Assembly (NCBI GenBank): GCA_009924895.1
Contig: RFQR01000001.1
Coordinates: 79,575-143,574, forward strand
Reading direction: 5' to 3'
Origin: a bacterium
GTDB lineage: Bacteria > Patescibacteriota > Minisyncoccia > Phycocordibacterales > UBA2100
Length of the DNA: 64,000 bases
The stretch's first letter is position 1, and each line of letters starts with the position of its first letter. The notes beneath the pieces were generated by a model. It worked only from the letters and a program-made list of their open reading frames with translations, was not told where the DNA came from and did not search any database. Below are positions 3,922 to 44,811 of this stretch, in pieces. Made by a program: the position numbers and the translations under genes.

Positions 3922-5601
3922 ATGCAACTCAACACCCCTGCCGACCTCCTCGCGGCACTCAAAGATCTCCACACTCCCATCAATGACCAAGCCTCGATCA
4001 AGGAATATCGCTACGTTGTTTACATCCGAAAATCCACGGATCAAGAGGAAAAACAGGTGCGCTCACTGGCCGACCAGATACTCGAATGCAAAGAATATGC
4101 CGAGCGCGTAGGTATCACGATCCGCGACGAAGACATCGTGCAAGAAGCAGAATCTGCGAAAGAGCCGGATATCCGACCCAAGTTCCGCAAGATGATCAAA
4201 GACATCCAAGAGAAGGGTAAATACGACGGCATCCTCGCATGGCATCCCGATCGCTTGGCCCGCAACATGAAAGATGCGGGAGAAATCATCGACCTTCTCG
4301 ACAAGGGCACGATCAAGGATCTCAAGTTCGTGAGTTTTTCGTTTGAGAAAACAACCGCGGGCAAAATGCTCCTCGGCATCATGTTCGTTATGTCCAAAGA
4401 GTACAGCGACAAACTTTCCGACGACGTATCACGCGGGAACAAGCGGAGCATCGAGGAAGGCAAATACATCAACAAAAACAAACATGGCTATTTCAAGGAC
4501 GCGAATCAGCACATGCAGCCCGACGGCGAAAACTTCCTTTTGATCAAGCAAGCGTTCCGTATGCGCGTCGAGGGTAAGACGATGAAAGAAATATCGGAGT
4601 TTTTGAACACAAATCACTACATGAAATGGCACACAAGCAAACCTCGCGCGATATTCAAGTGGAATCCACAGACGATTGAAAAGACACTCAAAGATCCCTC
4701 ATACACCGGAATCGTCATGTACGGAAAATCCCATCGGGTAGCATTCGTGAATCTAATCGATGCGTACGGATTCCAACCGATGATCTCGGTGTCGGAGTTC
4801 ATGCAAATCAACAAACTTACACATGAAAAACAACTTTTCAAACTTGCTCGAAAGTATCGCAAGGGTGAAGACGTGAAAGCCGATCTCATGCGCGGCATGG
4901 TGATCTGCGACGGGTGCGGCGAGGCCATGACCGCAAGTATCACGCCCAAGAAAACACCACACGGCGTTACGCGCTATTTCTACTACCGCTGCGAATCAGA
5001 GGATTGCGAACGAAAACCACGATCGATTCGCGCAAAAGTCGTGCTCGCTCACATATTCGATTTTCTCGACACGCATCCGTTCTCCACGAAGGAAGCGTAC
5101 GAACATTATGCAAAAGAGATGGAGCGTGTGGCTGCCGAGCGCAATCGTACTGCTCAACAACTCTCACAGACACTCCGCCTCGAAAGAGGCCGGATTGAGG
5201 ATCACTTGATCACAACGAAAGAGTACTTGATCGAAGAAAAGGACGAAACGATCAAAAAATCATACAAGAGTGATGTGCTTCGCTACGAGGCCCGGATCAA
5301 AGAACTCAAGGGCGAGATCGAGAAAGCGCAGACCGTCGTAGCACGTCAAAAGGCCGCGATTCTGACATACGAAAACTTCCTCGAACTCATGGAAAAAATG
5401 CCTAAAATCCTACGTTCTATGCAGAATATGCAGGAGATGGATTTCCTGATCCGCAAAATCTACACGAACTTTACAATCGAGGGAAAAAACGTAGCAAAAT
5501 CAACGCTTTCTGCGCCATTCGATGCGCTTTACACCCTCAAAATCTCAAACGGTGGGCGCGGGGAGACTCGAACTCCCAAGCCTTTCGGCACACGCTTCTG
5601 A
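3922..5601 (+). CDS. Large serine recombinase (resolvase/invertase-type catalytic domain plus recombinase, zinc-ribbon and coiled-coil C-terminal region)
   Basis: MQLNTPADLL...YRYVVYIRKSTDQEEKQVRSLADQ shows the catalytic Ser motif. A Cys cluster (CDGCGE...CESEDC) and a long coiled coil are present. The track ORF begins earlier, but the Met at 3922 fits the domain start. The last roughly 16 codons lie inside the tRNA-Leu gene. Confidence 0.9.
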   Translation: MQLNTPADLLAALKDLHTPINDQASIKEYRYVVYIRKSTDQEEKQVRSLADQILECKEYAERVGITIRDEDIVQEAESAKEPDIRPKFRKMIKDIQEKGKYDGILAWHPDRLARNMKDAGEIIDLLDKGTIKDLKFVSFSFEKTTAGKMLLGIMFVMSKEYSDKLSDDVSRGNKRSIEEGKYINKNKHGYFKDANQHMQPDGENFLLIKQAFRMRVEGKTMKEISEFLNTNHYMKWHTSKPRAIFKWNPQTIEKTLKDPSYTGIVMYGKSHRVAFVNLIDAYGFQPMISVSEFMQINKLTHEKQLFKLARKYRKGEDVKADLMRGMVICDGCGEAMTASITPKKTPHGVTRYFYYRCESEDCERKPRSIRAKVVLAHIFDFLDTHPFSTKEAYEHYAKEMERVAAERNRTAQQLSQTLRLERGRIEDHLITTKEYLIEEKDETIKKSYKSDVLRYEARIKELKGEIEKAQTVVARQKAAILTYENFLELMEKMPKILRSMQNMQEMDFLIRKIYTNFTIEGKNVAKSTLSAPFDALYTLKISNGGRGETRTPKPFGTRF

Positions 5602-5634
5602 GACGTGAACGGTTACCAATTTCGCCACGCGCCC
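5553..5634 (-). tRNA. tRNA-Leu (anticodon CAG), type II with a long variable arm
   Basis: The reverse complement folds as a cloverleaf. The acceptor stem is GGGCGCG/CGCGCCC with discriminator A. There is a 3-bp D-stem with a GG loop. The anticodon stem CACGT/GCGTG carries the loop CU-CAG-AA. The variable stem-loop is GCC-GAAA-GGC. The T-arm is GGGAG-TTCGAGT-CTCCC. Confidence 0.9.
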
Positions 5635-5690
5635 GCAGCAGAGAGTATTGTATCTATTTTACCCGTTTTGGAAAATGATATGATTCTGTA

Positions 5691-5894
5691 ATGGACTCAC
5701 AAACTCAGCAGAAACTTGCAGAACTTGAACAAAAAATTGATGCAATTTATGTATCGGTCGAAAAAACACGCAGATACTTTCTCGGTACGCTCATAGTAAC
5801 TGCGATAGCGTTTCTTCTACCGCTTGTCGGGCTCCTCCTTGCTATCCCGTCACTTCTCTCGACGTATAGCGATATTTCGAATCTCAGTATTTAG
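5691..5894 (+). CDS. Small predicted membrane protein
   Basis: A 67-aa ORF with one strongly hydrophobic helix. Confidence 0.3.
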   Translation: MDSQTQQKLAELEQKIDAIYVSVEKTRRYFLGTLIVTAIAFLLPLVGLLLAIPSLLSTYSDISNLSI

Positions 5895-8113
5895 CGCGAG
5901 AACCAGGAGCGAATCCATTGGGTAATACGCGAGAGGAATGAATCAGGTACGGCATTTACCGCAGTTGCTGTCTGTTCGAGGGGTGGTGTTTCTGGAGATG
6001 CGACAGGTTGTGTTTGAACCACTTTTAATTTTTTCTGTACGGCAAGTTTCTTTCCAATTTTTTTAGGAATAACCAGATTCGTTGATGACGCTACGGACGA
6101 GGTGCTTGATGCCGCTCCTACGAGAGGAGTGCTTGTTGCATCTTCTGGTGACGTAGTTGCGATTGCCAGATTTGCTGTGACAATCGTTGACGTGGTAGTG
6201 CTGGTCGCCATGGTTATGACTGGTGAGGTACTCGATACTGGTGTTCCGCCACCCCCTACAGCTACAGGAATCGGAAACGTCTGCAATACGGTGATCCAGC
6301 TACGGCCCGATGCTGCGGTCAAGGCATAACTCGTACTCCAGAGACGATTATCAACGCTGTCAGTTGTAGGACGAACCCCGCCATCAGGTTGTTGCGCAGC
6401 AGCAAGTGCGTCTTTCGGCAATGCACCGGTAGAAGTTTTCCAGGCGCTTTCGGGCGACGCGTGCGCTTCGCTAAAGGAGTTCAAAGCGGTCATGACCCAG
6501 CTCGTTGAATCGATGTTCCCCCAGCCGCCATCACTGTTTTGTACTGATTTAAGGTAACCAATCGATTTCCCGAGTCCTCTGTTTACTCCCGGCACCGCAA
6601 AAAGAGCGCCAAGCGCCTGTGTCGCCGCCGCAGTAACGTCGGGACTATTTTCCCATGAGCCGTTCGGACTTTGCTTTGAGAGTACGAACGCTGCAACTTT
6701 TTGAATAATGTCGTCGTTTTGAGTGTAACCTGCGTGTTCGAGCACGATGAGTCCGAAAATATCGTCGTTCACGAGTGATGGATCGCCGATTTGTGTACCA
6801 TCAAATGCAGCAATGATTGGTTTTATAACGTTGCGCGTAGACCCTTTGTAGGGGTCAATACCGAGTGCCATAAGTGCCATCGCATGACGCATATAGTCTG
6901 TCACACTCCCAAAATCACTATCGGGTTGCGGATTGAGCATAAATGCTTTGATTGCATCAGTTGGGCCTCTGTTTGCCGCAATACCGATTGCCGCCCAATC
7001 TGAATATAGTAGTGATCCAAACGAACCGTTTTGCTTTTGCTTGCTTGAAAGAAAGGCAAGTGCACCTGGTACATCAAATACCTTGGGCCCACTTGTTCCA
7101 GCAGGTGTTCCACCGCCGCCTGTTGCCTGAGACACCATGAGAGGAGTATTGGGAAAGTAGCCAGTATTTTGAATACCGGCGGCATAGGTGCCAGCAATAT
7201 TCACGATAACGGTTGCCACGCCGTTTGTATCAGTTGTTGAGGTTGCGAACTCGGTGGCGATAAAATTGCTATCGAACTGCACTACACCCACGACTTCATT
7301 CGGTGCAGGAACGTACGTGCCAGTTGCAGGATCGTACCGTTTAGCGGTGATAGTGACTGACTGTCCGGTTTGTATGCTTGAAACCGAGGTGGTGACTTGC
7401 CACGGTGATCCAAAAATGAGATAGACGGTGTCATTACCAGAAACGGTGTACGAGTCAATACCAACAGATGGAAATGTGTTGTTTACCGCATACGTCCAGT
7501 TGTTGCAATCAGGTGAAGTGGTTGCGGTAAAAGTAATACAGTTGAGGAGAAACGAACTAAAAGATGGGTAGTACTGAAGATCGCTCACCGCGAAACTGCT
7601 GTCAGTGGTATCGAGTGATGAGAGAAGCGCCAACACACTGCGCGCAGGTACGTTGTATGTGGTCGTAGTTCCTGTTGGAGTGATAGATACATCTGGTGTG
7701 GTAGTCCCTGGAAGTGTAAGAGTCACTGGCCCTACCGTCTGAGAGCTGCCACGGATGGTCAATGTGACAGTCTCTGGTGTAGGCACAGGTGGTGTGTTGT
7801 CGACAATGATAACGAGTGAGGATGTAGTAGTGCTGTTACCAGATACGTCTGTTGCGGTCCAAGTAACGGTAGTGGTACCAACAGGGAAAGTAGTAGGTGA
7901 GTAGGTAACTGTTGGATTTGGGTCAGTATCATCGGTTGCAGTTGCAGGTACTAAAAGTGGCGAAGCAGGAAAGGTGCTGGTGGCGAAGGTCTGGTCAGCA
8001 GGCGCTGTTATGGTCGGTGCGGTTGTGTCTGGGGTCGGTACTGGAAGGGCATGCGCTGATGGTGAGTATAAAAAGGGAAGGACAATAAGGACACTCAGTA
8101 GTATTTTTTTCAT
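5891..8113 (-). CDS. Secreted surface protein with an N-terminal HYR-like domain, prenyltransferase/alpha-alpha-toroid repeats and a Thr-rich C-terminal region
   Basis: A signal peptide (MKKILLSVLIVLPFL) is present. TVTWTATDVSGN is HYR-like. Repeated QxxDGGWG-type motifs occur (LSKQSPNGSWEN, VQNSDGGWGN, QQPDGGVRP). Confidence 0.7.
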   Translation of the reverse strand: MKKILLSVLIVLPFLYSPSAHALPVPTPDTTAPTITAPADQTFATSTFPASPLLVPATATDDTDPNPTVTYSPTTFPVGTTTVTWTATDVSGNSTTTSSLVIIVDNTPPVPTPETVTLTIRGSSQTVGPVTLTLPGTTTPDVSITPTGTTTTYNVPARSVLALLSSLDTTDSSFAVSDLQYYPSFSSFLLNCITFTATTSPDCNNWTYAVNNTFPSVGIDSYTVSGNDTVYLIFGSPWQVTTSVSSIQTGQSVTITAKRYDPATGTYVPAPNEVVGVVQFDSNFIATEFATSTTDTNGVATVIVNIAGTYAAGIQNTGYFPNTPLMVSQATGGGGTPAGTSGPKVFDVPGALAFLSSKQKQNGSFGSLLYSDWAAIGIAANRGPTDAIKAFMLNPQPDSDFGSVTDYMRHAMALMALGIDPYKGSTRNVIKPIIAAFDGTQIGDPSLVNDDIFGLIVLEHAGYTQNDDIIQKVAAFVLSKQSPNGSWENSPDVTAAATQALGALFAVPGVNRGLGKSIGYLKSVQNSDGGWGNIDSTSWVMTALNSFSEAHASPESAWKTSTGALPKDALAAAQQPDGGVRPTTDSVDNRLWSTSYALTAASGRSWITVLQTFPIPVAVGGGGTPVSSTSPVITMATSTTTSTIVTANLAIATTSPEDATSTPLVGAASSTSSVASSTNLVIPKKIGKKLAVQKKLKVVQTQPVASPETPPLEQTATAVNAVPDSFLSRITQWIRSWFSR

Positions 8114-8140
8114 GATAGTAATGACGTTAATAATGAATAA

Positions 8141-8635
8141 TTATTTCTGTGTTTCGTACCTCCACTCGATGCTGTCGCCAGGAGCGACCATTTTTTGTGA
8201 AGCACCAAGATCTGATGAGGTTCCATTGACGTACAGGAACCAATACATGCCGTTTTCATTTTTTCGACCCGCAACAGAGTCGACGAAGTCTCCTAATGAT
8301 GGGTACGCACGAGAAGTGAAGTTTATTTTACCGATACTACGCTCGTATTGCATGGTCTCGAGTACGGTCTGGTTCTTTTTAGCGACCATTCGCACGATAG
8401 TTGGTAGCTCTGAGGCCTGTGTTACTTCTTTTTGAGGCGAGGTAATTCGAGTAGGAAGTGGCGATGGCGCGATGCGTGGTTGGTTCTCGGTCGAGGTAAT
8501 TGTTTCTTTTTTCTGGAGCGCAGGGGCGAGATAGGCATCTTGAGTGTATTGATAGGGTTGCTGCGATGAAAGTGCGCCAGAGCCGATGCCGACGATAAAA
8601 AGTACAAGAACAATGAGAAGTATTTTTTGGTTCAT
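8141..8635 (-). CDS. Signal-anchored protein with a DUF4430-like C-terminal domain
   Basis: The start was chosen at MNQKILLIVLVLF. The C-terminus GMYWFLYVNGTSSDLGASQKMVAPGDSIEWRYE resembles DUF4430. Confidence 0.5.
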   Translation of the reverse strand: MNQKILLIVLVLFIVGIGSGALSSQQPYQYTQDAYLAPALQKKETITSTENQPRIAPSPLPTRITSPQKEVTQASELPTIVRMVAKKNQTVLETMQYERSIGKINFTSRAYPSLGDFVDSVAGRKNENGMYWFLYVNGTSSDLGASQKMVAPGDSIEWRYETQK

Positions 8636-8870
8636 ATAAAAAGCTCTGCTGGTGCAGAGTCTTGAGAAGTGCCGTACTAGCACAAGATCCTGCTCGGGAA
8701 TTTTTCTTCTTTGAAGACCGGACTTGTCCACGTAAGGTGGCATTACCGTTGCGGCACAGTGGAGGAATCACCTGTCCGTTGAAAACAGTTAGGACACCTC
8801 ACTTCCACAAAGAAGTGTGAGCATCATACACCCGCAAGCACTCGAGTCAAATATATGCTTGAATGAGTTC

Positions 8871-9617
8871 ATGATTGGTCTCTTCGATTCGGGCTGCGGT
8901 GGGCTCACTGTGTTGCGTGCTATTCGCGCACGTGCTCCTCAAGTAGATATTGTGTATTTCGGCGACATACGAAATGCCCCTTATGGTTCTAAATCACAGA
9001 AAGAACTCGAACGATTAACCAAAAATGGCATACAAGTATTGCAGTCTTTTGGTGCGAAGGACGTGGTGAGTGCTTGCAACAGTGCCTCCACCTCATTTTT
9101 GGAAGGTGCGACGCGCGGGCGATTTGTGGAAATGACGCGACCGACCGCACGCGCGATGCGACTTCTCGCAGGGGCGCGCGTGCTTCTCTTAGCGACTGAA
9201 GCCACGGTGAAATCGGGTATTTATAATGATGCACTCGATCCGATCGTTTCGCTGACGCCACTCCCTGCAGCACTGCTTGCTAGTTCTATTGAAAATGGGG
9301 AAGATAATGCCGAAATAAGCCGCATTGTCTCGACTCTTTTTGACATCGTGGCGCGTAAAAAGTTTGATGCGGTCTTGCTTGCCTGTACTCACTATCCGTT
9401 GGTTCGTGACGTTATCCAGAATGAGGTCGATGCGCGATGGGGGCATATTCCGGTTCTTGATCCCGCTGATGCGGTAGCTGAGGAAGTGGTGGAACGTTTC
9501 CCAATCGCTGGGGGCGGGAAGACCACCTTCTATATTTCAAAAGAGAGCGCACCGTTCCAGCGATTGGTTCGTCGCCTTTTTGGCGCAAGGAAGTATGCTG
9601 TAGAGGTAGTGTCTTGA
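8871..9617 (+). CDS. murI: Glutamate racemase
   Basis: MIGLFDSGCGGLTVL matches the Asp/Glu racemase N-terminal motif, and a second catalytic-Cys region LLACTHYPL is present. Confidence 0.85.
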   Translation: MIGLFDSGCGGLTVLRAIRARAPQVDIVYFGDIRNAPYGSKSQKELERLTKNGIQVLQSFGAKDVVSACNSASTSFLEGATRGRFVEMTRPTARAMRLLAGARVLLLATEATVKSGIYNDALDPIVSLTPLPAALLASSIENGEDNAEISRIVSTLFDIVARKKFDAVLLACTHYPLVRDVIQNEVDARWGHIPVLDPADAVAEEVVERFPIAGGGKTTFYISKESAPFQRLVRRLFGARKYAVEVVS

Positions 9618-9642
9618 CACAAAAATAGTATATTATACTATG
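9614..9642 (+). promoter_or_regulatory. Promoter overlapping a perfect 15-bp palindrome, a likely operator for the toxin-antitoxin pair
   Basis: TTGACA at 9614-9619 is followed 16 nt later by TACTAT. The palindrome tagtata-t-tatacta at 9626-9640 overlaps the spacer and the -10 element. Confidence 0.5.
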
Positions 9643-9662
9643 TATGTATTATATTGTAATAC

Positions 9663-9899
9663 GTGCATACTATGCGCAACGTAACCATTCCGCTCCCAAA
9701 AGACCTGCTTGCATACCTCGATGAACAGGTGGCATCTCATCAGGCAGATACACGCGCAGGGCTGATTCGTCGCATTATCGCGCAGCACCGCGAGAATGAG
9801 CTTGTTACCGTATGGCGTCAGGCACAGGAAGAGCGTCGAGCGGGAAAGACAGTACGTGGCAATCTGCGTGACATCCTAAAAGTATTTCCAACTGAATAG
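9663..9899 (+). CDS. Ribbon-helix-helix (CopG/ParD-like) antitoxin
   Basis: VTIPLPKDLLAYLDEQVA....AGLIRRII is a typical RHH N-terminus. It sits immediately upstream of a RelE/ParE-like gene. Confidence 0.7.
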   Translation: MHTMRNVTIPLPKDLLAYLDEQVASHQADTRAGLIRRIIAQHRENELVTVWRQAQEERRAGKTVRGNLRDILKVFPTE

Positions 9900-9906
9900 T
9901 TGCACT

Positions 9907-10164
9907 ATGGGAATTGTATTCACGACTCGTTTTTTGCGTTTAGTGAAGAAGATGAGCGTGAAAGAGCAGAAAAAAGTCTTGAAACTAGTTGAAATATTTG
10001 AGAAAAATCCTAAAGATCGTTCGCTCAAAGTTCATAAATTACAGGGCAAACTTGCGGGAGCTTTTGCGCTCTCAGTAGAGTATGATGTACGTATACTCTT
10101 CAGTGTTGAAGATGATGAAATTCTCTTTTTCGATATCGGCTCACACGATGATGTGTATAGATGA
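9907..10164 (+). CDS. RelE/ParE-family type II toxin
   Basis: KVHKLQGKLAGAFALSVEYDVRILFSVEDDEILFFDIGSHDDVY matches the RelE/ParE core. The stop overlaps the murD start as ATGA. Confidence 0.75.
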   Translation: MGIVFTTRFLRLVKKMSVKEQKKVLKLVEIFEKNPKDRSLKVHKLQGKLAGAFALSVEYDVRILFSVEDDEILFFDIGSHDDVYR

Positions 10165-11480: not shown

Positions 11481-11540
11481 TTTGGCGAGCCTTGGCATCC
11501 CGCCAAGAGCCTTGAAAAGGAGCTGACCATGTGACAGGAC

Positions 11541-12044: not shown

Positions 12045-12093
12045 CACTGAGAGCTAAAACCCTCAGCACTGCACTTGGATGCTTTGAACTTTG

Positions 12094-12124: not shown

Positions 12125-12155
12125 TACACTTACAAACGGTAGTAGGCGATTATGA

Positions 12156-35731: not shown

Positions 35732-35733
35732 TT

Positions 35734-37274: not shown

Positions 37275-37278
37275 AGAG

Positions 37279-38934
37279 ATGCGCTCCATTCTACTTGGTG
37301 TGTGCATCACATGGTTTTTTTTGCTTGCTCCGTACGCGTACGTGCTGATGGCTTGGGGAACGTATTCGGTCCCGATTGAATTAGTCGACGATTCTCATTA
37401 CTATCTCGCGCGCATGGTCGCGGTTTCTCATGGATACCCGCTTATCGGGAATCCATATATCGCCGAACATGCGAATGATCCCGCCATTGCATTTTTTGGC
37501 GCTGATTGGCTTGGCGCCATACCACTGTTTTTGGGTTTTTCTGTGGTCGGCGCAGAGCTTTGGAATATTGTATTTTGGAGTGCTGCATCAGCGCTCTCGC
37601 TGTGGTATTTTGCACGTTCTTTTGCGTGGTCGTCCCGGCAGTATTTATTTTTAGTAAGTGTCGTTACGGTGTCCGCACTTCCTATGCTGTTACGACCGGT
37701 TGCAATGCAGATTGTCTTTCCGCTCTTTCTCGCATTTCTTGCCGCACTCAAAGGCTGGTTGGATGAGCCTCATAGCCATCGTCGTTCAGTACTCCTTGCA
37801 CTATTTTCGATTATTCCTTTTTATCTCTATACGTACTTTTGGCAGATTGTAGTTGTGGCGTTTGCGATTCTGCATCTAATTGCGTGGAAAAAAGCACAGT
37901 ACCGTATGCCGCTCTTTTGGGTTGACTGCGCGGTTGGTATTGGCGCTCTGCCGATGGCACTCTACACGCTGCATCAGCTTTCACTCCCGTTGTATTGGGA
38001 AACAGTCACACGAATCGGATTTGTCGCAACGCATACGTTCGGTTTTTCAGGAGTTCTCGCGGCGCTGTTTATTGTAGTTCCACTTTTTGCGCTATGGTTT
38101 TCTTATCGATCTTCACTCGATTCGTTTTGGGTGATTGTTGCGATCTCGTTGTGGGTAGCAGCGTGGAGTAATGTCATTTCAGGAAAAGATCTTGAAACTG
38201 CAGTTCACATGATGCGCTTTGTCATGGTATACGCCGTAAGTGCCAGTGTTGCGGTGCTTTTTTCTCTTGAAAATAAGAAAACCATAAGCATATACGCTGC
38301 TCTAATCTGTGTTGTGGTGGTAGGAGTATACCAACTTCATGACGTGTATCGTTTCTCGGCAGTCTTATCTTCTGACCCTCGCACGGGAGAGCAGTATGCG
38401 CCGTTGTTTACATGGCTAAACGAACATGCGCAAACGGGAGATGTCGTTCTCTCGCCGTATGATATTGGTCGGTACATGCCGATTATGACAACCCAGTTTG
38501 TTCTCTATCATCCGAACGCGGAGCTTTTTTTGATGTCAGACCGCGAGGTAGAAGACCGCTACCTCGCTTCGCATGTTTTTGACTCACTTACTTTGTCGGA
38601 TATTGAACGCGATTTTCGATTATATGCGGGTGCGGGCAATTCCTTGCATCAGTACAAAACTCATAATCGTGAAGTAACACTGTGTCGATGGTTGCAGCAA
38701 TCGGATTGTGGAGTATATGCAACAGAGTTCTCGTGGAGAGGGGAAGCATATTTTAGGTCTCTGCTCAATCGTTTCCAAGACATACAGCGGTCACCCTCTA
38801 AAACACTGCGAACATGGAATGTACGGTATGTTATTTTGGACTCAATAAAACTACCAAAATCAAACCTCCCCCTTCAGGTTCAGGTTGTGATTGGTCCGTA
38901 CACCATCTACCGAGTACCCGTTACGACTTCATGA
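37279..38934 (+). CDS. Large polytopic membrane protein, possibly a glycan polymerase or transferase
   Basis: It has more than 10 TM helices and a C-terminal soluble domain. The start was chosen just after the upstream stop. Confidence 0.5.
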   Translation: MRSILLGVCITWFFLLAPYAYVLMAWGTYSVPIELVDDSHYYLARMVAVSHGYPLIGNPYIAEHANDPAIAFFGADWLGAIPLFLGFSVVGAELWNIVFWSAASALSLWYFARSFAWSSRQYLFLVSVVTVSALPMLLRPVAMQIVFPLFLAFLAALKGWLDEPHSHRRSVLLALFSIIPFYLYTYFWQIVVVAFAILHLIAWKKAQYRMPLFWVDCAVGIGALPMALYTLHQLSLPLYWETVTRIGFVATHTFGFSGVLAALFIVVPLFALWFSYRSSLDSFWVIVAISLWVAAWSNVISGKDLETAVHMMRFVMVYAVSASVAVLFSLENKKTISIYAALICVVVVGVYQLHDVYRFSAVLSSDPRTGEQYAPLFTWLNEHAQTGDVVLSPYDIGRYMPIMTTQFVLYHPNAELFLMSDREVEDRYLASHVFDSLTLSDIERDFRLYAGAGNSLHQYKTHNREVTLCRWLQQSDCGVYATEFSWRGEAYFRSLLNRFQDIQRSPSKTLRTWNVRYVILDSIKLPKSNLPLQVQVVIGPYTIYRVPVTTS

Positions 38935-40168
38935 ACTGCCACGAAACTATCGCAGCGTTTCCGGCGCGATATATGATTTGTGCAATGACAGCGCCCATAA
39001 TCCCATAGAGCGGAACGAGGATAAGGATGGATGCAATTAAAATAATCGAAGGGCCATTGGTGACGATGTAGAGGGCACGTGTTTTTTTGTGTGCCGTCAA
39101 AGAAGCAAGAAGCATGGGCGGAATTGCAGAAAAGACAATAGAAAGTGCATACCATTGTGAATACTGCACAGAATCGAGGTACACAGGAAAGAATACTCGA
39201 AACAACAGTGGAGCAATCAGGATATAAAGACCAATACAGGCAAACGTAAACAACGAGAGGAGGAGTATTTTTCGCCAGAGTGTAACGCGCAGTTCTTCGA
39301 GTGGTCGACCGGTAAGTTTTGGTAATGAGAGGCCATAGAAATTTTTGAGCACACCTTTGAGTTGTTCAGGAGCGGCGCCTGCGAATGCATAGGTTGCCAA
39401 TTGTACAGGACCAAGAAGTGAAAAGATAATTATACTGTCGAACTTGTCAGCAATTGCCGCCAAAATATTCATCACACTGAGATGAGAACTGTAGTGGAGT
39501 AGTTCAGGGTCGGTGATGGTGTTGCGTGCGTGCGTGCGTGCCTTCCAAAAAAAGTATCCTGAAGCAATTGTTTTTGCAAGAAAATAAGTGCCGACCAAAA
39601 TAATCGCTCGTTCGCCCAAAAAAAGTGCGGCAATCATGGCAATGAAGGTAAACGTATTTGTTCCAATGAGAGAAAGAGAGCCGCGGGCAAAGTCTTTTTG
39701 GGCGAAGAAAAAACCAGCAAAGGGTGAGAGTGCTGACAATAGCGGTTGGAGAAAGGCGACAATAATCAAGGCGCTCGCCAGATATCCGTTACCAAGAAAT
39801 CCATAATAGGCGCTGGCACCTAAGGAGAGTAAGACAAAAGGCAGGCTCCATTTGATTTGCAGTTTAAATGACTGCACGAGTGTCCCGTCGAGTCCTCGTG
39901 CGACTGATTGCGACATGGCATCGCCAAGTCCCGAGAGCGAAATGGCCCCGAACATGGCGGCGAGCGATAACACGTATTTATAGTTACCGTACATGTCTTT
40001 GCTTGCAAAATGCCCAAACGCAATAGCGAGGCTCATTGAGAGCGCGATGCCAACCGCTTGTTCAAGTACGAGCCAAAACCCGCCGGAAGCCAAATACACC
40101 ATGTCGGTTTTGGTATAGCGCTCGCTCCAGCGCAGGATACTGTAAGTAGAGGCACGCAACTTATCCAT
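38921..40168 (-). CDS. Wzx-type polysaccharide flippase (MOP/MATE superfamily)
   Basis: It has 12-14 TM helices and a polysaccharide-biosynthesis-protein pattern. The start was chosen at MDKLRAST, since the longer track ORF overlaps the divergent gtrA. Confidence 0.75.
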   Translation of the reverse strand: MDKLRASTYSILRWSERYTKTDMVYLASGGFWLVLEQAVGIALSMSLAIAFGHFASKDMYGNYKYVLSLAAMFGAISLSGLGDAMSQSVARGLDGTLVQSFKLQIKWSLPFVLLSLGASAYYGFLGNGYLASALIIVAFLQPLLSALSPFAGFFFAQKDFARGSLSLIGTNTFTFIAMIAALFLGERAIILVGTYFLAKTIASGYFFWKARTHARNTITDPELLHYSSHLSVMNILAAIADKFDSIIIFSLLGPVQLATYAFAGAAPEQLKGVLKNFYGLSLPKLTGRPLEELRVTLWRKILLLSLFTFACIGLYILIAPLLFRVFFPVYLDSVQYSQWYALSIVFSAIPPMLLASLTAHKKTRALYIVTNGPSIILIASILILVPLYGIMGAVIAQIIYRAGNAAIVSWQFMKS

Positions 40169-40212
40169 ACCGGCATGGTAGCGCGAAAAAAGTAGACTTG
40201 GTAGCATAGAGC

Positions 40213-40599
40213 ATGCAAATTCCGCAGACAGCTCGATTCTTAATTGCCGGGTCGACAGGTGCTGTGGTAAATCTCTCAACGTTTTATGTGCTCGAGCAGA
40301 TATGGGATGTATGGTACATAACGGCATCTGTCTTTGCATTTTTATTAGCCTTCGTTGTTGGCTTTCTATTGCAGCGATTCTGGACGTTCGAATACACCGG
40401 GAGTGATGACTTCCATCGACATGCACTGATGTATTTTGTAACCGCGTTGGTGAATGTTGGGATTAACGCGGGCATTGTTGCGATTCTTGTTGAACGGTGG
40501 TCTCTCTGGCCCTTGTTTGCGCAAGCGCTCGCTGGTACAATTGTTGCAGTATGGAGTTTCTTTATCTACCGATATGTTATCTTTGTTGAAAAGATATGA
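40213..40599 (+). CDS. GtrA-family membrane protein
   Basis: RFLIAGSTGAVVNLSTFYVL and four TM helices over about 128 aa are present. Confidence 0.7.
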   Translation: MQIPQTARFLIAGSTGAVVNLSTFYVLEQIWDVWYITASVFAFLLAFVVGFLLQRFWTFEYTGSDDFHRHALMYFVTALVNVGINAGIVAILVERWSLWPLFAQALAGTIVAVWSFFIYRYVIFVEKI

Positions 40600-41090
40600 A
40601 GAAAAAAAATAAAAAAACAGTGGCAAAAAATGCAAAACCAAAGTGGGTTGCGGTTTCGGGTGGTTTTGACCCCATCCATATCGGGCACGTCCGCATGTTT
40701 CAACAAGCGCGCAAATATGGCGATAAACTTGTTGTGATTTTAAATAACGATAATTGGCTAGAGGCGAAAAAAGGATATGCATTCATGAATGAAAAAGAAC
40801 GCGCCGAACTCATCAGTGCATTTCCAGAAGTCGACAAGGTGGTGATTACTTCACATATAAAAAACGACTCAGATCGTAGTGTGTGTCGTGAGCTTGCTAA
40901 ATTAAAGCCAGCAGTATTTGCCAATGGTGGGGATCGAAAGCCAGATGGTGATCCGGTTCCCGAAGTTGAGCTCTGCAGTAAGCTCGGTATTAAGATGGTC
41001 TACAACATCGGCAAGGGAGGTAAGGTGCAGTCATCCTCCTGGCTGGTAAATGCTGCAATCGAGAACGCAGCAAGAAACAGGAAAGGCTAG
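40596..41090 (+). CDS. Cytidylyltransferase-like nucleotidyltransferase (TagD/RfaE-domain-II-like)
   Basis: SGGFDPIHIGHVRMF matches the HxGH motif. Confidence 0.7.
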   Translation: MKKKNKKTVAKNAKPKWVAVSGGFDPIHIGHVRMFQQARKYGDKLVVILNNDNWLEAKKGYAFMNEKERAELISAFPEVDKVVITSHIKNDSDRSVCRELAKLKPAVFANGGDRKPDGDPVPEVELCSKLGIKMVYNIGKGGKVQSSSWLVNAAIENAARNRKG

Positions 41091-41136
41091 TGGTCAACTC
41101 TAGCGGCAGGGCGGGGGGTCTGATAGCATACAGTGC

Positions 41137-43470
41137 ATGTCACTTGAAAAAGTATTGCGCGCTGTGGTCTTAACTGGAGTCTTTGCGCTCCCTTTTATTC
41201 CTTTTATTGTCTCATCAAACCTCTTCTTCCCGTTTATTACCGGTAAGAATTTTGCATTTCGTTTATTTGTTGAGATTGCAGTAGGAGCGTGGCTTGCGCT
41301 CGCTTTTGTACATCCGCAGTATCGACCGCGCCGCTCGTTTGTATTAGGTGCGTTCGTGTTTTATGCAGCCGCACTCCTCCTTTCTGCACTCTTTAGCTTC
41401 AATCCGGTTCGCAGTATCTGGAGTAATTACGAACGCATGGAGGGGTGGATAACGATTGCACACCTGGTTGCGTATCTTACCGTTTGTTTGTCGGTCATGA
41501 CGAGCGAGCGTTTGTGGCGCAATTGGTGGATGGTCTCAATGCTCGCGTCTATCGGCATCGGTCTCTTTGGGGTATTGCAGCTCATGGGAGCTCTTACCAT
41601 CAACCAGGGGGGTATTCGTCTCGATGCGACTCTTGGTAATGCGACCTATCTTGGCGTATACATGCTCTTTCACATCTTCATTGCCGTGCTCTATCTCGTT
41701 CGAGAAGGTGGTGAGTACTGGAATACGACCGAAAAAGCGGTTGTCGGTGGAGCTGCGCTTCTTTGGCTGCTCTCGGTCTTGAGCCTCCTTCAAGGTCAAC
41801 TTTCAATTGGTAAACCATTCTTTGTCCAATTTCTTCTCGCTGGTTTTGGTTTTTTGCTAGTACTGACTTTGAGACGATCGTATGCACTCTCAGCACTTAT
41901 CGCTCTTGCAGCGACCATTCTATTTTTCACCGCGACCCGTGGTGCAATGGTGGGTCTTGCAGGTGGAGCGTTTCTCGCGGCGATTACCTATGTTGTGCTT
42001 GAGCCCTGCTCGCGAATGGCATGGCGAACTGGTGTTGCAGTTATCGCAGCTCTTGCGCTTGTTGGAATGTTTTATCTCGGCCGTGAATCGACGTTTGTAC
42101 GAAATATCGAGCCACTCCAGCGACTTGCTACCATGTCGATTTCTGATAGCAGCTTTACGGGTCGTTTGGTGAACTGGAGTATGGCATGGAATGGCGTTAA
42201 GGAACGTCCGATTCTCGGTTGGGGTCAAGAAAACTACGGCCTCGTCTTTAACAAATACTTTGATCCGCGCATGTATGGGCAAGAGCCGTGGTTTGATCGA
42301 GTCCATGAAGTCGTACTTGATCAGCTTATCGCGGGCGGTATGGTAGGACTTCTTGCATACCTCTCGCTGTATCTCGCGGCACTATACTGTCTGTGGCGCA
42401 GTGGCGCGTTTGACTCGGTTGAGAAAAGTATTCTCACTGGTCTTCTTGCGGGATACTTTTTCTATCTCGTGTTTACGTTCGACAATATAACGAGTTGGGT
42501 GTTGTTTGTCTCTCTCCTTGCATTTATTGCAGTGCGTGCGGCGCTTGCACAACAATCGCGCGTCGTATTTACTTCCGGCGGTATGCCACTGCAGTCGCTT
42601 CCTATGGTGGCGGTTGTTGTATCGGTTGCCACGGTCGCAAGCATTTGGTACCTCAATGGTCCTGCGTATCTCGCTAATCGCGAATTAATTCAAGCGGTCA
42701 CGCCGCAGCGCGGAGGCGTTATCGTAAACTACGATCACTTTACCAAAGCGCTCTCGTATAACGCTCTCGGAATGCAAGAAATTCGTGAGCACCTCGCACA
42801 GGGCACGGCGCAGCTTGCAAACGCACAAAGTGTCTCTGAGGACGTCAAGAAGAAGTTCTATGATTTGGCAACCGGCGAGATGCTTACTATGCAAAAGCAG
42901 GTGCCGCTTGAGGCGCGCTTCCCGCTCTTTTTGGGCATGGTCTACACTGCGTATGGCCAGTTTGATTTGAGTGGGCAAGAGTACCAGAAAGCGCTCGCAA
43001 TCTCTCCAAAGAAAATTGATATCTTGTTCCAAGCTGGCGCGAACGCCTTGAACGCAAAGAAGAATGACCAAGCGCTTGCGTACTTCAAACAAGCGTATGA
43101 GCTGGTGCCGAACAATGATGATGCTCGCACGCTCTACGTCGCGATGGCAATTCAAGTCGGTAAACTTGATCTTGCAAAAGAGCTTACTGTGCCGCTCATG
43201 GCAAGCGACAAACTGTACCAGTCGCGTGTCATGAATGCCTATGCGGCAGGGAAGTATTACAAAGAAGTGATTGCGATTGTTCAAAATCACATCAAGTTGA
43301 AACCCTATGATCCGCAGGCCCGTTTCACGCTGGCAGCGGCATACTATCTGGCAGGCGATAAACAAACAGCAATAAAGACACTGCAAGAGGCTGCGCAGCA
43401 GTTGCCAGACATTGCTCAACAAGCGAACCAGCTTGTCGATCAAATCAAAAAAGGCACGATAAAGATTTAG
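41137..43470 (+). CDS. O-antigen-ligase/Wzy-like membrane protein fused to C-terminal TPR repeats
   Basis: It has about 12 TM helices and a TATRGAMVGL loop (Wzy_C-like). The C-terminal roughly 250 aa have TPR-like AxxY periodicity. Confidence 0.7.
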   Translation: MSLEKVLRAVVLTGVFALPFIPFIVSSNLFFPFITGKNFAFRLFVEIAVGAWLALAFVHPQYRPRRSFVLGAFVFYAAALLLSALFSFNPVRSIWSNYERMEGWITIAHLVAYLTVCLSVMTSERLWRNWWMVSMLASIGIGLFGVLQLMGALTINQGGIRLDATLGNATYLGVYMLFHIFIAVLYLVREGGEYWNTTEKAVVGGAALLWLLSVLSLLQGQLSIGKPFFVQFLLAGFGFLLVLTLRRSYALSALIALAATILFFTATRGAMVGLAGGAFLAAITYVVLEPCSRMAWRTGVAVIAALALVGMFYLGRESTFVRNIEPLQRLATMSISDSSFTGRLVNWSMAWNGVKERPILGWGQENYGLVFNKYFDPRMYGQEPWFDRVHEVVLDQLIAGGMVGLLAYLSLYLAALYCLWRSGAFDSVEKSILTGLLAGYFFYLVFTFDNITSWVLFVSLLAFIAVRAALAQQSRVVFTSGGMPLQSLPMVAVVVSVATVASIWYLNGPAYLANRELIQAVTPQRGGVIVNYDHFTKALSYNALGMQEIREHLAQGTAQLANAQSVSEDVKKKFYDLATGEMLTMQKQVPLEARFPLFLGMVYTAYGQFDLSGQEYQKALAISPKKIDILFQAGANALNAKKNDQALAYFKQAYELVPNNDDARTLYVAMAIQVGKLDLAKELTVPLMASDKLYQSRVMNAYAAGKYYKEVIAIVQNHIKLKPYDPQARFTLAAAYYLAGDKQTAIKTLQEAAQQLPDIAQQANQLVDQIKKGTIKI

Positions 43471-43472
43471 AT

Positions 43473-43907
43473 ATGACCGAGCGGATGCTCTGTGCAGGTG
43501 GCATCGTCCTTAATACCGAAGGCAAGCTCGCACTTGTTATGAGTGGTCCGAAGGACGATGCGTTCTGGGGTTTCCCGAAAGGGCATGTTGATGCTGGTGA
43601 GGACGTGAGGGGAGCGGCGCAGCGAGAAATAGAAGAGGAGACAGGACTCACGCACCTTACGTTTGTGCGCGAGCTTGGTTTCTATGAGCGATTTCGCGGA
43701 ACAAAAGGCGGGGGAGATGACACGAGCGAGCTCAAAGAAATTCACATGTTTCTGTTTCGTACCGACGAAATGGTACTTGCGCCGAACGATGAGTGGAACC
43801 CCGAGGCGCGCTGGGTTAGCGTCGATGAAGCGCTTGCACTCATCACGCATCCAAAAGATCGCGCATTTTGTGAGCGTATTCGTGGATTGATAGAGGCTGG
43901 AAAATAG
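43473..43907 (+). CDS. NUDIX hydrolase
   Basis: GFPKGHVDAGEDVRGAAQREIEEETGL is the Nudix box. Confidence 0.8.
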   Translation: MTERMLCAGGIVLNTEGKLALVMSGPKDDAFWGFPKGHVDAGEDVRGAAQREIEEETGLTHLTFVRELGFYERFRGTKGGGDDTSELKEIHMFLFRTDEMVLAPNDEWNPEARWVSVDEALALITHPKDRAFCERIRGLIEAGK

Positions 43908-43926
43908 AGTACATTTCTTGGTACTG

Positions 43927-44000
43927 TCGGGGTAGCTCAGCCGGTTAGAGCGAGCGTTTCATAAGCGCTAGGTCGAGAGTTCGAGTCTCTCCCCCGACAC
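43927..44000 (+). tRNA. tRNA-Met (anticodon CAT), elongator type; a tRNA-Ile2 with lysidine cannot be excluded
   Basis: The cloverleaf has acceptor GTCGGGG/CCCCGAC with discriminator A, D-stem GCTC/GAGC, anticodon stem AGCGT/GCGCT with loop TT-CAT-AA, and T-arm GAGAG-TTCGAGT-CTCTC. No CCA is encoded. Confidence 0.9.
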
Positions 44001-44441
44001 AAAATGAGAGACCAAATCGGTTTCGGTGGTTTTTTCTGCGGTGGCGGGCAGAAAAAACCACGGATTTTCGGGCACGCCGCGCGCTTCGCGCGCGACGAGG
44101 GTGAGGTTCGAGCCGAAGATTTTTTGGAGGGCTGCTTTTTTGGAGGGGAGGTCATTAGATTGTGCCGCTTCGTCCAATAACAAAGCGTCTTTTATCCATT
44201 TCCGCATAGGTTCGAGCCACGCGGCGGCGTTCCGTTCCAAGCGCAAGATATTCTCTTGTGCCGACCTCTTTTGAGACATCAACTCGCGCTTGCGAGATAG
44301 ATATTCTTCTCTCTCAAGATCTTGCTCCACAAAGAGGTCGGTGATTCGGGCGATTTTGCCGTCCAAATCATCAATCTTTGCCCGCATCGCTTGAACGGAC
44401 GCCGCCGTTTGAACGGCGTTAGCCGCGTCTTTCGTAGCCAT
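43968..44441 (-). pseudogene. C-terminal fragment (about 157 aa) of a large serine recombinase, with its 3' end inside tRNA-Met
   Basis: The coiled-coil tail ...LQKIFGSNLTLVAREARGVPENPWFFL aligns with the intact recombinase tail FLIRKIYTNFTIEGKNVAKSTLSAPFDAL. The last 11 codons are the reverse complement of the tRNA T-arm and acceptor, and the stop falls in the variable loop. No catalytic domain lies upstream. Confidence 0.6.
44027..44062. repeat. Perfect 14-bp inverted repeat with an 8-bp spacer, 27 bp downstream of the tRNA-Met 3' end
   Basis: The repeat is gtggttttttctgc-ggtggcgg-gcagaaaaaaccac. Confidence 0.75.
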
Positions 44442-44541
44442 ACGATCTAACTCTTCTGCCCACTCGCGCGGAAAGTGAATTACTACTGAAATTTACGACA
44501 GAAAAAGTAAAGAATATGGAAACACACTTGAAAGATTACAA

Positions 44542-44811
44542 ATGGAATACAAAGAGCATATTACAGCAGACACAGACTATAAAAACACTTTAATATCAGT
44601 AATAAATCTGGCAAAGAACGCAAAGACCTTGTTTGAAAGTTCTGAACCAAAGGAAAAACAGCAAATTATTAAATATCTTGTTCAGAACTACCAAGTAGAT
44701 GGAAAAACTCCATATTTTACAATAACAAAACCATTTAATTGGCTACTTAAAATAGCAGATGAACCAACTTGGCTGGCACATATGACGACCATCTCTCAGA
44801 AGAAGGTATAA
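44542..44811 (+). pseudogene. AT-rich C-terminal fragment (89 aa) of another serine recombinase, on the opposite strand
   Basis: QIIKYLVQNYQVDGKTPYFTITKPFNWLLKI aligns with FLIRKIYTNFTIEGKNVAKSTLSAPFDALYTLKI of the intact recombinase. GC is about 30%. No N-terminal catalytic region is present. Confidence 0.5.

What the first reader, a model, noticed from the sequence alone, without database searches (positions are those of the whole stretch)
3922..44811. Three copies of one recombinase tail family in 64 kb, each abutting an attachment-site-like junction
The intact enzyme and both fragments share a conserved C-terminal block, (R/K)K-I-(Y/F)-x-N-(F/L)-T-(I/L)...PF(D/N)xLxxLKI / NPWFFL. In each case the coding sequence terminates at a junction: tRNA-Leu, tRNA-Met and the truncated PGAM start. 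This suggests a lineage-specific family of serine recombinases whose genes are arranged so that the attachment site lies within their own 3' end. The fact that one family targets different tRNAs and possibly a protein-coding site is notable.
Basis: inference. Interest (0 to 1): 0.55.

Follow-up and report, generated by a model that had tools for sequence, protein, structure and literature searches.

The report
Self-splitting tRNA-end serine integrase elements
The window holds one complete and two decayed copies of small mobile elements of candidate-phyla-radiation bacteria whose serine integrase gene runs across its own attachment site, so that insertion at the 3' end of a tRNA gene cuts off the enzyme's last ~46 amino acids, a design so far described only for archaeal tyrosine integrases.

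Summary
3922-5601 is a large serine recombinase (LSR). 43968-44492(-) and 44479-44811(+) are C-terminal remnants of two other LSRs. The three are not significantly alike pairwise, but each matches LSR tails of one Patescibacteria-wide clade.

In 58 of 72 evaluable genome loci and 49 of 80 metagenome loci, relatives end in an oppositely oriented tRNA gene at a fixed register. Eighteen tRNA identities are used.

The window element spans about 1621-5555. Its left end is a conserved 46-aa ORF ("X"). X starts at a short copy of the tRNA's last nucleotides, in the same frame as the LSR-tRNA junction.

A 4.9-kb contig with a k-1 terminal overlap, read as circular, carries LSR and X as one 577-aa ORF and has no tRNA. 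So attP most likely lies inside the integrase ORF, and integration at tRNA nt ~71-74 swaps X for antisense-tRNA read-through.

The X-side arm carries a T-loop-like motif 6 bp further out than the tRNA does. This is the offset expected between attP and attB half-sites.

The truncated phosphatase junction sits exactly at the canonical crossover position, but it is a single case.

An orphan Rfam RNA, LOOT, is part of these elements.

The parts
1621..1628 (.). Left junction (attR) core AGTGGACG. It copies the antisense of the last nucleotides of tRNA-Leu, in the same reading frame as the right core.
   Evidence: Homology with the related element in L094 begins at window 1624, and the flanks to the left differ.
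1618..1758 (+). 'X': a 46-aa domain/ORF (FSGRLYSTHELFDTIASHTESMEAWNDAIREFLSQDRKAAVLPVLL*). It is the detached C-terminal part of the integrase. Its first ~30 nt are the P arm of attP, with a CGAAC motif at +23.
   Evidence: X HMM hits in WIN, L023, L003, L021, L002, L004 and L081. X is fused to the LSR in P0093/L100. There are 43 small homologues with X at the C-terminus. Motif offset.
1777..2040 (+). orf87, a conserved second gene of the element, function unknown.
   Evidence: tblastn hits directly after X in L081-88, L003, L023 and L004, and after LSR-X in the circular L100.
2049..2567 (+). orf172, a cargo/backbone gene of unknown function.
   Evidence: 55% identical homologue in the same position in L023. 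No Pfam hit.
3061..3639 (-). Small single-pass membrane protein gene downstream of LOOT.
   Evidence: Homologue in L023.
3704..3826 (-). LOOT RNA (Rfam RF03000), divergent from the integrase gene and upstream of the membrane protein gene.
   Evidence: 73.2 bits against a gathering score of 46.4. The same RNA lies on the upstream side of the LSR in about 15 other loci and in the circular L100.
3922..5601 (+). Large serine recombinase in its integrated form. The body and tail are element-encoded up to ~5550. The last 17 codons (GGRGETRTPKPFGTRF*) are antisense tRNA-Leu.
   Evidence: Pfam domains. Catalytic motif YxRKST and other invariant residues. 2947 homologues. C-terminal alignment.
5551..5558 (.). 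Right junction (attL) core GGTGGGCG, the antisense of tRNA-Leu nt ~68-75. The crossover is inferred to lie within GTGG.
5551..5634 (-). tRNA-Leu(CAG), the integration target (B arm). The mature tRNA body is left intact.
   Evidence: ARAGORN. Rfam tRNA, 50.6 bits.
43926..44000 (+). tRNA-Met(CAT), the target of the decayed second element.
43968..44492 (-). Fragment 2: C-terminal ~170 codons of a subfamily-2 LSR, reading into the antisense of tRNA-Met.
44479..44811 (+). Fragment 3: C-terminal ~97 codons of a third, AT-rich LSR subfamily. The canonical junction is at 44769|44770. After that the frame reads through into the phosphatase gene.
44769..45338 (+). 5'-truncated histidine phosphatase (His_Phos_1) gene lacking the RHG motif. 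Homology begins within 3 nt of the canonical LSR junction.
   Evidence: No RHG-encoding N-terminus elsewhere in the window.

Best explanation
The window carries three insertions of small (~3-5 kb) integrative elements that are common in Patescibacteria (CPR). Each is driven by a large serine recombinase.

In the free circular form, the integrase ORF continues across the attachment site attP into a ~46-aa C-terminal domain, X. The last ~25 nt of the conserved tail form one attP arm. The first ~30 nt of X form the other arm, which mimics the T-loop and acceptor end of a tRNA with the motif shifted 6 bp outward.

The enzyme recombines attP with the extreme 3' end of a specific tRNA gene (nt ~71-74, at the discriminator/CCA) and leaves the mature tRNA intact. 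Integration therefore separates the integrase body from X. The body is now terminated by whatever stop codon occurs in the antisense tRNA. X ends up at the far end of the element.

The element at 1621-5555 in tRNA-Leu(CAG) is complete. The ones at tRNA-Met and next to the phosphatase gene are reduced to integrase 3' stubs, joined head to head by a later deletion.

Shown: the domain architecture, the tRNA association and its register, the element ends, the in-frame cores, an LSR-X ORF on a contig read as circular, and the half-site offset. Inferred: the exact crossover dinucleotide, present-day activity, and any regulatory meaning of losing X.
For: LSR domains and catalytic residues are present.

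The organism is a Parcubacteria/Paceibacterota relative.

An opposite-strand tRNA sits at the ORF end in 58 of 72 genome loci, covering 18 amino-acid identities and 25 anticodons, and in 49 of 80 metagenome loci. Relatives labelled as non-CPR taxa lack it.

The register is fixed. In 24 of 31 loci the frame is xxT|GGN at the CCA antisense. Homologue C-termini read RT (T-loop TCGAAC) and even YQLS (D-loop).

Left-end X begins at a 5-10 nt copy of the cognate tRNA end, in the same frame as the right junction, in 5 of 5 testable loci. Examples are L003 CAT GGT GCA CGC against AAT GGT GCC CGG, and L094 TGT GGG CAT against GGT GGG CAT. A permutation test of cognate against non-cognate cores gives p = 0.03.

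Homology between the window and L094 (72% identical LSR) starts at window 1624. The left flanks are unrelated.

P0093 is the LSR body, then GGR, then X, in one 577-aa ORF. Its 4929-bp contig L100 has an exact 30-nt terminal overlap and no tRNA, with gene order LSR-X, orf87, cargo, LOOT. X in P0093 scores 31 bits (E 6e-12) against an HMM built without it. The in-frame reconstruction of the window LSR-X (588 aa) aligns end to end with P0093 at 47% identity.

The motif (C/T)(G/T)GAAC lies at +23 in every P arm and at +17 in every tRNA B arm. Subfamily 2 shows a 4-nt shift.

In subfamily 2 (the family of fragment 2), attL, attR and an attP-like site share a 4-5 nt core in L037, L044 and L045.

Non-tRNA relatives have a contiguous ~50-aa extension after the tail, so an extension in the place of X may be ancestral. 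Its homology to X was not tested: the X HMM did not match these loci in that call.
Against: No empty attB site was found. All 11 contigs carrying the neighbouring 740-aa gene have the element, so present-day mobility in this species is not shown.

Only one circular/attP-form contig was found. A head-to-tail tandem array would assemble the same way.

The profile search with X found only small ORFs, with no further LSR-X fusions.

Core covariation is modest (p = 0.03), because most sampled targets are tRNA-Leu.

The P' (tail) and B' (flank) arms show no recognisable symmetry with P and B.

X is modelled with low confidence (pLDDT 33-52), and its function is unknown.

The inverted pseudo-tRNA-Leu 45 nt outside the left end (1452-1576) is not explained by the model.
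Confidence: 0.8

Rival explanations
1. The three tails resemble each other only through generic coiled-coil composition, and their position next to tRNAs or the phosphatase gene is coincidence.
For: Pairwise BLASTP among the three tails is not significant. Fragment 2 gets weak coiled-coil Pfam hits.
Against: Each fragment matches bona fide LSR C-termini well beyond the coiled coil (E 9e-30 and 1e-10). The tRNA junction recurs in more than 100 independent loci at a fixed register.
Confidence: 0.01
2. The recombinase is a resident chromosomal gene kept next to tRNA genes, for example an invertase or regulator, and not the integrase of a mobile element. The overlap with the tRNA is conserved synteny.
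For: The element is fixed in all 11 contigs of this species. No phage or conjugation genes are present. Few relatives occur in viral contigs.
Against: Close relatives sit at 18 different tRNA identities. The flanks beyond the cores are unrelated between the window and L094. A tRNA-free contig read as circular exists. Tandem and decayed copies are seen. Assemblies often break at the junction.
Confidence: 0.05
3. This is a classical tRNA-island geometry. The crossover lies deep inside the tRNA, the element supplies a replacement 3' half, X is an independent small gene, and the LSR-X ORF of L100 is an artefact of a tandem array or mis-assembly.
For: This is how most tyrosine-integrase islands work. 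X homologues are mostly annotated as free-standing 47-60-aa ORFs. Only one LSR-X ORF was seen.
Against: No direct or inverted copy of the tRNA 3' 22-mer lies within 10 kb in 55 of 58 loci. The similarity at the left end is only 5-10 nt. Conservation of X begins exactly at the core, and the residues there co-vary with the tRNA. Even a tandem array would contain a recombination-made attP joint with the same in-frame fusion.
Confidence: 0.08
4. This rival concerns the phosphatase junction only. Fragment 3 abuts the truncated PGAM gene because of an ordinary deletion that happened to end near the integrase stop, not because the integrase used a site in that gene.
For: The same region has suffered at least one unrelated deletion, which joined fragments 2 and 3 at 44474/44479 inside both genes. 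There is no second example of a protein-coding target. The 5' part of the PGAM gene is nowhere in the window.
Against: The junction falls within 3 nt of the canonical crossover. A gap-free alignment puts PFNWLLKIADEPT|W against L033 PFNLIYDLNKTQE|W, where W = TGG = the CCA antisense. L023 shows another rearrangement anchored at the core.
Confidence: 0.45

Closest known systems
Large serine integrases of phages and integrative elements (phiC31, Bxb1, A118/LI, TP901-1)
   Same: Same domain order: Resolvase, Recombinase, zinc ribbon with an inserted coiled coil. Short att sites. An attP half-site whose outer motif lies ~5-6 bp further from the centre than in attB (the 5-bp rule is from my own knowledge of the LI integrase-attP structure, Rutherford et al. 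2013).
   Different: To my knowledge, the known ones have attP outside the integrase ORF and mostly target protein-coding genes. Here attP lies inside the ORF, the target is the last few nucleotides of a tRNA gene, and the clade has diversified over at least 18 tRNA identities.
SSV-type 'suicidal' tyrosine integrases of archaeal viruses and plasmids (SSV1, pTN3, pT26-2)
   Same: The recombination site lies within the integrase's own gene, which is partitioned on integration. The targets are tRNA genes. The module is compact. [quoted passage not shown]
   Different: Those are tyrosine recombinases in archaea, and the gene is split so that the enzyme is disrupted. Here a serine recombinase in bacteria loses only a ~46-aa C-terminal domain, and its catalytic and DNA-binding domains stay intact.
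Integration-dependent immunity of mycobacteriophages (BPs, Brujita, Charlie; Broussard et al. 2013, from my own knowledge)
   Same: attP lies inside a coding sequence, so integration changes the C-terminus of the product and thereby its behaviour.
   Different: There the split gene is the repressor (a C-terminal degradation tag is removed) and the integrase is a tyrosine enzyme. Here the integrase itself is the split gene. Any regulatory effect is only inferred.
tRNA-gene genomic islands with tyrosine integrases (P4-like and others)
   Same: Integrase gene adjacent to and convergent with the target tRNA. Tandem arrays and decayed remnants at tRNA sites.
   Different: Those duplicate 15-50 nt of the tRNA 3' half as direct repeats. 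Here only ~5-10 nt at the very end are shared.
LOOT RNA motif (Rfam RF03000; Weinberg et al. 2017 candidate RNA set)
   Same: Window 3704-3826 scores 73 bits against the Rfam model over its full length.
   Different: No function or genomic context was found for it in the paper's main text. Here it is a component of the LSR elements, always followed by a small membrane-protein gene.

Membership tests
Large serine recombinase (serine integrase) | N-terminal resolvase catalytic domain with the nucleophilic serine | tested here: met
   PF00239, E 6e-23. The Y34-R36-K37-S38 motif and the DRLAR motif are invariant in 41 homologues.
Large serine recombinase (serine integrase) | Recombinase domain followed by a zinc ribbon with four Cys | tested here: met
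   PF07508 and PF13408 score above their cut-offs. C329, C332, C357 and C362 are invariant.
Large serine recombinase (serine integrase) | Coiled-coil motif inserted in the zinc-ribbon domain | tested here: met
   The AF2 model of homologue P0093 has long paired helices at 379-427 and 431-464, followed by a beta-hairpin at 503-518, with pLDDT around 90.
Large serine recombinase (serine integrase) | attP and attB half-sites that differ in the spacing of the outer (ZD) motif | tested here: met
   The CGAAC-type motif is at +23 in the P arm and +17 in the tRNA B arm in all 7-8 loci. Only one arm of each site could be read in this way.
Large serine recombinase (serine integrase) | Conservative recombination at a 2-bp crossover; unidirectional without an RDF | not testable with these tools
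   Needs biochemistry. The shared core GTGG only bounds the crossover.
Self-partitioning ('suicidal', SSV-type) integrase | att site inside the integrase ORF, with the gene partitioned on integration | tested here: met
   The LSR-X ORF is continuous across the core in L100. The body and X lie at opposite element ends in the window, L094, L003, L002, L004 and L081.
Self-partitioning ('suicidal', SSV-type) integrase | Tyrosine recombinase fold and catalysis; archaeal host | tested here: not met
   The enzyme is a serine recombinase in Patescibacteria. It therefore works like that family but is not a member of it.
Self-partitioning ('suicidal', SSV-type) integrase | The integrated copy is inactive | not testable with these tools
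   Only the last ~46 aa are lost. Activity of the truncated form is unknown.
LOOT RNA (RF03000) | Score above the Rfam gathering threshold over the full model | tested here: met
   73.2 bits against 46.4, model positions 1-121.
Histidine phosphatase superfamily branch 1 (the 'PGAM' gene) | N-terminal RHG catalytic motif | tested here: not met
   The Pfam alignment starts at profile position 19. A stop lies 3 codons upstream in frame. There is no RHG fragment elsewhere in the window.

The most novel reading that the evidence does not exclude
A very large Patescibacteria-wide clade of serine integrases is the first bacterial, and the first serine-type, example of integrases that partition their own gene. 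The full-length enzyme (body + X) would be made only from the circular element. The integrated copy would make a truncated enzyme with a junk tail, with X encoded separately at the other end. The physical state of the element would then set the form of the enzyme and probably the direction of recombination.

Because each member's attB is simply the 3' end of a particular tRNA gene, and its attP can be read from its own ORF, the clade would also be a natural catalogue of hundreds of integrase/att pairs.
Probability: 0.35. Interest if true: 0.8.

Novelty: new variant of a known kind. Interest (0 to 1): 0.68.

Why it matters
Serine integrases are the main tools for inserting large DNA into genomes, and their usefulness is limited by knowing matched attP/attB pairs. 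This clade has thousands of members (2947 hits at E<=1e-10 among the candidates scored), and both sites can be read directly from sequence. attB is the last ~25 nt of a tRNA gene plus its flank. attP is the integrase's own tail/X junction.

The clade also breaks the published generalisation that integrases carrying the att site inside their own gene are exclusive to archaea (PMC8371274).

It suggests a simple way for minimal elements in tiny CPR genomes to couple integrase form to integration state.

It gives the orphan LOOT RNA a genomic home.

Tried and rejected
- Pairwise BLASTP of the three tails gave no significant similarity. The relationship had to be shown through third-party homologues.
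- A search for a second copy of the tRNA 3' 29-32-mers in the window found none. A 22-mer search with up to 4 mismatches in 58 loci found essentially nothing, which ruled out long att repeats.
- A Smith-Waterman search for an inverted partner of the integrase tail at the left end of subfamily-1 elements found nothing above shuffles, apart from the pseudo-tRNA.
- I looked for an empty site with the exact 740-aa neighbour. All 11 contigs are occupied.
- The tblastn hit of the L081 upstream LSR to window 1546-1731 first looked like a fourth integrase stub. It is the X domain, which in L081 is fused to the tail of an upstream LSR.
- I tested whether the 'PFD' codons (TTCGA) are the mirror-image ZD motif of the P' arm. 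This was rejected because the DNA is not conserved (TTCAAT, TTTGAT and TTTAGT in relatives).
- The word-indexed search with the X alignment gave only 4 small proteins. The last protein search, with the tail+X of P0093, found no candidates.
- The viral-contig scan gave only 5 distant hits.
- The AF2 model gave no confident structure for X, so no fold search was run.
- Literature searches for serine recombinase + tRNA + Patescibacteria/Saccharibacteria/CPR found nothing relevant.
Full report
**What is in the window**

ARAGORN finds two tRNA genes: tRNA-Leu(CAG) at 5551-5634(-) and tRNA-Met(CAT) at 43926-44000(+).

ORF 3667-5601(+) encodes a large serine recombinase (LSR). Pfam finds Resolvase (E 6e-23), Recombinase and the recombinase zinc ribbon. 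An alignment with 40 homologues puts the start at 3922 and shows the catalytic YxRKS serine motif and four zinc cysteines invariant. The ORF has no stop of its own before the tRNA. Its last 17 codons (GGRGETRTPKPFGTRF*) are the antisense of the 3' half of tRNA-Leu.

On the other side of the window, an open frame at 43968-44492(-) ends in the antisense of tRNA-Met. An AT-rich open frame at 44479-44811(+) runs into a His_Phos_1 gene (44769-45338). That gene lacks the first 18 profile positions, including the RHG motif. The two frames meet head to head at 44474/44479.

**Are the three tails one family?**

Not by direct comparison. BLASTP among them gives E values of 1.5 to 10. Each is nevertheless a genuine LSR C-terminus.

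- Fragment 2 hits the phage integrase family phrog_95 at positions 454-548. It matches the last 156 residues of the LSR in locus L066 at 42% identity (E 9e-30) and about 30 further LSRs.
- Fragment 3 matches the last 98 residues of a second LSR in L033 (E 1e-10). It also matches the HMM of the intact enzyme's family at the colinear positions 452-532.

PFD) is conserved across the intact enzyme's family. In an AlphaFold model of homologue P0093 it is the beta-hairpin and short helix that follow the coiled coil. The window therefore contains three subfamilies of one clade, not three copies of one close family.

The intact enzyme has 2947 homologues at E<=1e-10 among the scored candidates, named Parcubacteria, Paceibacterota or Patescibacteria wherever a name exists. 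Their C-termini, after the conserved tail, read GG/GA/CG followed by x-x-R-T, and sometimes run on to YQLS. These are the antisense translations of a tRNA acceptor end, T-loop (TCGAAC) and D-loop, in a fixed frame.

A scan of one genome per species gave 80 loci.
- In 58 of them a tRNA gene on the opposite strand overlaps or abuts the end of the LSR ORF.
- Eight more contigs stop within 184 nt of the match.
- Fourteen have no such tRNA, and these include every locus labelled as a non-CPR phylum.
- The 58 tRNAs cover 18 amino-acid identities and 25 anticodons, and 43 encode CCA.
- In 24 of 31 closer relatives, the CCA antisense begins at the third base of a codon (xxT GGN), 10-11 codons after the PF motif.

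An independent scan of JGI metagenome contigs reproduced the pattern in 49 of 80 loci. Most of the remainder are contigs that end at the integrase. The association is far beyond chance and is specific to the CPR clade.

**Ends of the window element**

Long repeats of the tRNA 3' end are absent, so the crossover must lie at the very end of the tRNA.

The far end was found through a small conserved ORF, here called X (window 1618-1758). X is followed by orf87 (1777-2040) and orf172 (2049-2567). The same X-orf87 module lies upstream of the LSR in L023, L003, L002, L004, L021 and L081-88.

Conservation of X starts exactly at F(S/G)GR. The codons there resemble the antisense of the cognate tRNA end, in the same reading frame as at the LSR-tRNA junction:

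| Locus | Left junction (X) | Right junction (LSR-tRNA) |
|---|---|---|
| window | AGT GGA CGA | GGT GGG CGC |
| L003 | CAT GGT GCA CGC | AAT GGT GCC CGG |
| L004 | GAT GGC GGC | AAT GGC GGA |
| L094 | TGT GGG CAT | GGT GGG CAT |

Cognate pairs match better than shuffled pairs (p = 0.03).

L094 carries an LSR 72% identical to the window's. Its similarity to the window begins at window 1624. To the left, L094 has the EPSP-synthase gene, whereas the window has a terminator-like hairpin and other sequence.

The element is therefore about 1621-5555 (3.9 kb). It comprises X, orf87, orf172, one or two further small ORFs, a membrane-protein gene, LOOT RNA and the LSR.

**attP lies inside the integrase ORF**

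The two cores are in the same frame, the LSR has no stop before the core, and X has none after it. Circularisation must therefore fuse them.

Such a fusion exists. P0093 (577 aa) is a subfamily-1 LSR whose tail ...PFSELVTSKVLN is followed by GGR and an X domain. That X domain scores 31 bits (E 6e-12) against an X HMM built without it.

Its contig L100 (4929 bp) has an exact 30-nt terminal overlap, as expected of a circle in a k=31 assembly. It contains no tRNA and has the predicted circular permutation: LSR-X, orf87, cargo (an AAA_15/21 ATPase), LOOT. The in-frame reconstruction of the window enzyme (588 aa) aligns end to end with P0093.

A head-to-tail tandem array would assemble identically. 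It would contain the same recombination-made joint.

Relatives that do not abut tRNAs carry a contiguous ~50-aa extension after the tail. This suggests that an extension in the place of X is an ancestral part of the enzyme, although its homology to X was not tested and the X HMM did not match these loci.

**Site geometry**

Counting from the core, a T-loop-like motif (C/T)(G/T)GAAC starts at +17 in every tRNA arm. It starts at +23 in every X-side arm, where it encodes the x-E-L of X.

In the subfamily of fragment 2, the equivalent element-borne pseudo-T-loop is 4 nt further out than the real one.

An outward shift of about 5 bp of the zinc-ribbon-domain motif is what distinguishes attP from attB half-sites in the characterised LSRs (my own knowledge of the LI integrase work). 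So the enzyme probably reads the T-arm and acceptor end of the tRNA gene as its B half-site.

The other two arms (the integrase tail and the tRNA downstream flank) show no obvious symmetry.

The shared GTGG places the crossover at tRNA nt ~71-74, so the mature tRNA sequence is preserved.

**The two decayed copies**

Fragment 2 belongs to a subfamily in which the LSR gene is flanked by perfect 85-160-nt inverted repeats of its own 3' end. In L037, L044 and L045 these elements have three related sites that share a 4-5 nt core:
- an attL (tail | tRNA);
- an attR (host | pseudo-T-loop arm), lying in L037 beside the next tRNA of the cluster and in L045 about 100 nt from one;
- an internal inverted attP-like copy.

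In the window only the last ~170 codons remain at tRNA-Met.

Fragment 3 aligns without gaps to the L033 enzyme, whose ORF ends ...NKTQE|WGG* in tRNA-His. This puts the canonical junction at 44769|44770. Phosphatase homology (LAGTYDDHLSEEG) begins at 44769-44775.

The junction with the truncated gene is thus at the crossover position. That favours an integrase-mediated event, either use of a pseudo-site or an att-anchored deletion such as the one in L023. But it is a single case, the missing 5' part is not in the window, and an ordinary deletion cannot be excluded.

**Comparison with known systems**

The enzyme is a member of the large serine recombinases by every sequence criterion tested.

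It works like the SSV-type 'suicidal' tyrosine integrases of archaea, whose att site lies in their own gene and which target tRNA genes. A 2021 review states that such enzymes are exclusive to archaea (PMC8371274). It is not a member of that family, because the chemistry, the domain of life and the extent of the split all differ.

It also recalls the integration-dependent immunity phages, where integration changes a protein's C-terminus (my own knowledge).

I found no paper describing serine integrases that target tRNA ends in CPR bacteria. The library searched is incomplete.

**Limits**

- No empty site or excision product was found for the window species.
- Only one attP-form contig was found.
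- The function of X is unknown and its structure could not be predicted.
- Any regulatory consequence of losing X is inference.

Noticed in passing
window 3704-3826 (-); also L001 5405-5525, L023 9589-9715, L018 9821-9940, L002 8874-8992, L003 7971-8090, L016 7933-8047, L081 6413-6539, L100 2440-2554, L106, L110, L118, L128, L144: The orphan Rfam motif LOOT RNA (RF03000) is a component of these serine-integrase elements. It almost always lies on the upstream side of the integrase and is always followed on its own strand by a gene for a small protein with an N-terminal transmembrane helix. One copy (L148) lies downstream of a non-tRNA relative.
   Followed up: partly
window 1452-1576 (+): A degenerate copy of tRNA-Leu(CAG), inverted relative to the real gene, lies 45 nt outside the left end of the element. 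It has an identical acceptor 5' strand GGGCGCG, the anticodon loop CTCAGAA, and 18 of 20 nt of the 3' end. It folds strongly (z = -7). It overlaps the end of a LAGLIDADG-like ORF (789-1586). Its origin is unexplained.
   Followed up: partly
L037, L040, L044, L045, L050, L055, L056, L058-L061, L066, L072, L074, L080: In the subfamily of fragment 2, the integrase gene is bracketed by perfect 85-160-nt inverted repeats of its own 3' end plus the last 4-6 nt of the tRNA. The upstream copy is joined to a pseudo-T-loop arm, making a complete inverted attP-like site just upstream of the integrase start. This could be an operator or an alternative recombination site.
   Followed up: partly
L081-L088 (P0006 loci), e.g. 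L081 3632-9677; L083 3501-3632: Two different LSR genes lie in tandem at tRNA-Ala. The upstream one is fused in frame to the X domain of the downstream element, as expected if one element integrated into the attL of another. Strain L083 differs by an inverted 133-nt copy of the upstream integrase's tail and a different left flank.
   Followed up: partly
L023 9920-10627: A 69%-identical relative at the same tRNA-Leu(CAG) has lost integrase residues ~200 to the end. The deletion stops within a few nucleotides of the att core. This is a second example, besides the phosphatase junction, of a rearrangement anchored at the crossover site.
   Followed up: no
L139, L147, L148, L164, L176 (relatives without a tRNA junction): Their contiguous C-terminal extensions mostly end in -AA (RAA, HAA, QAA, SAA; L147 ends -CA), reminiscent of ssrA-like degradation tags. 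The X domains end in hydrophobic tripeptides (VLL, VKL, VVF, ITL).
   Followed up: no
L021, L022, L028, L036, L046, L064, L077, L094, L102, L106 and others: Many assemblies break exactly at the 3' end of the integrase gene. This suggests heterogeneity (occupied and empty sites, or several tRNA contexts) in the sampled populations.
   Followed up: no
L094 9054-9981; L100 118-1821: Cargo of related elements includes a ThsB-like TIR protein with an 8xMP membrane protein, and an AAA_15/AAA_21 ATPase. These are candidate anti-phage defence genes.
   Followed up: no
window 1577-1620: The reconstructed native sequence downstream of tRNA-Leu contains a hairpin (CCGAAGC-ATG-GCTTCGG) followed by a T-run on the tRNA strand. 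It is probably the tRNA terminator, now separated from the tRNA by the element.
   Followed up: no
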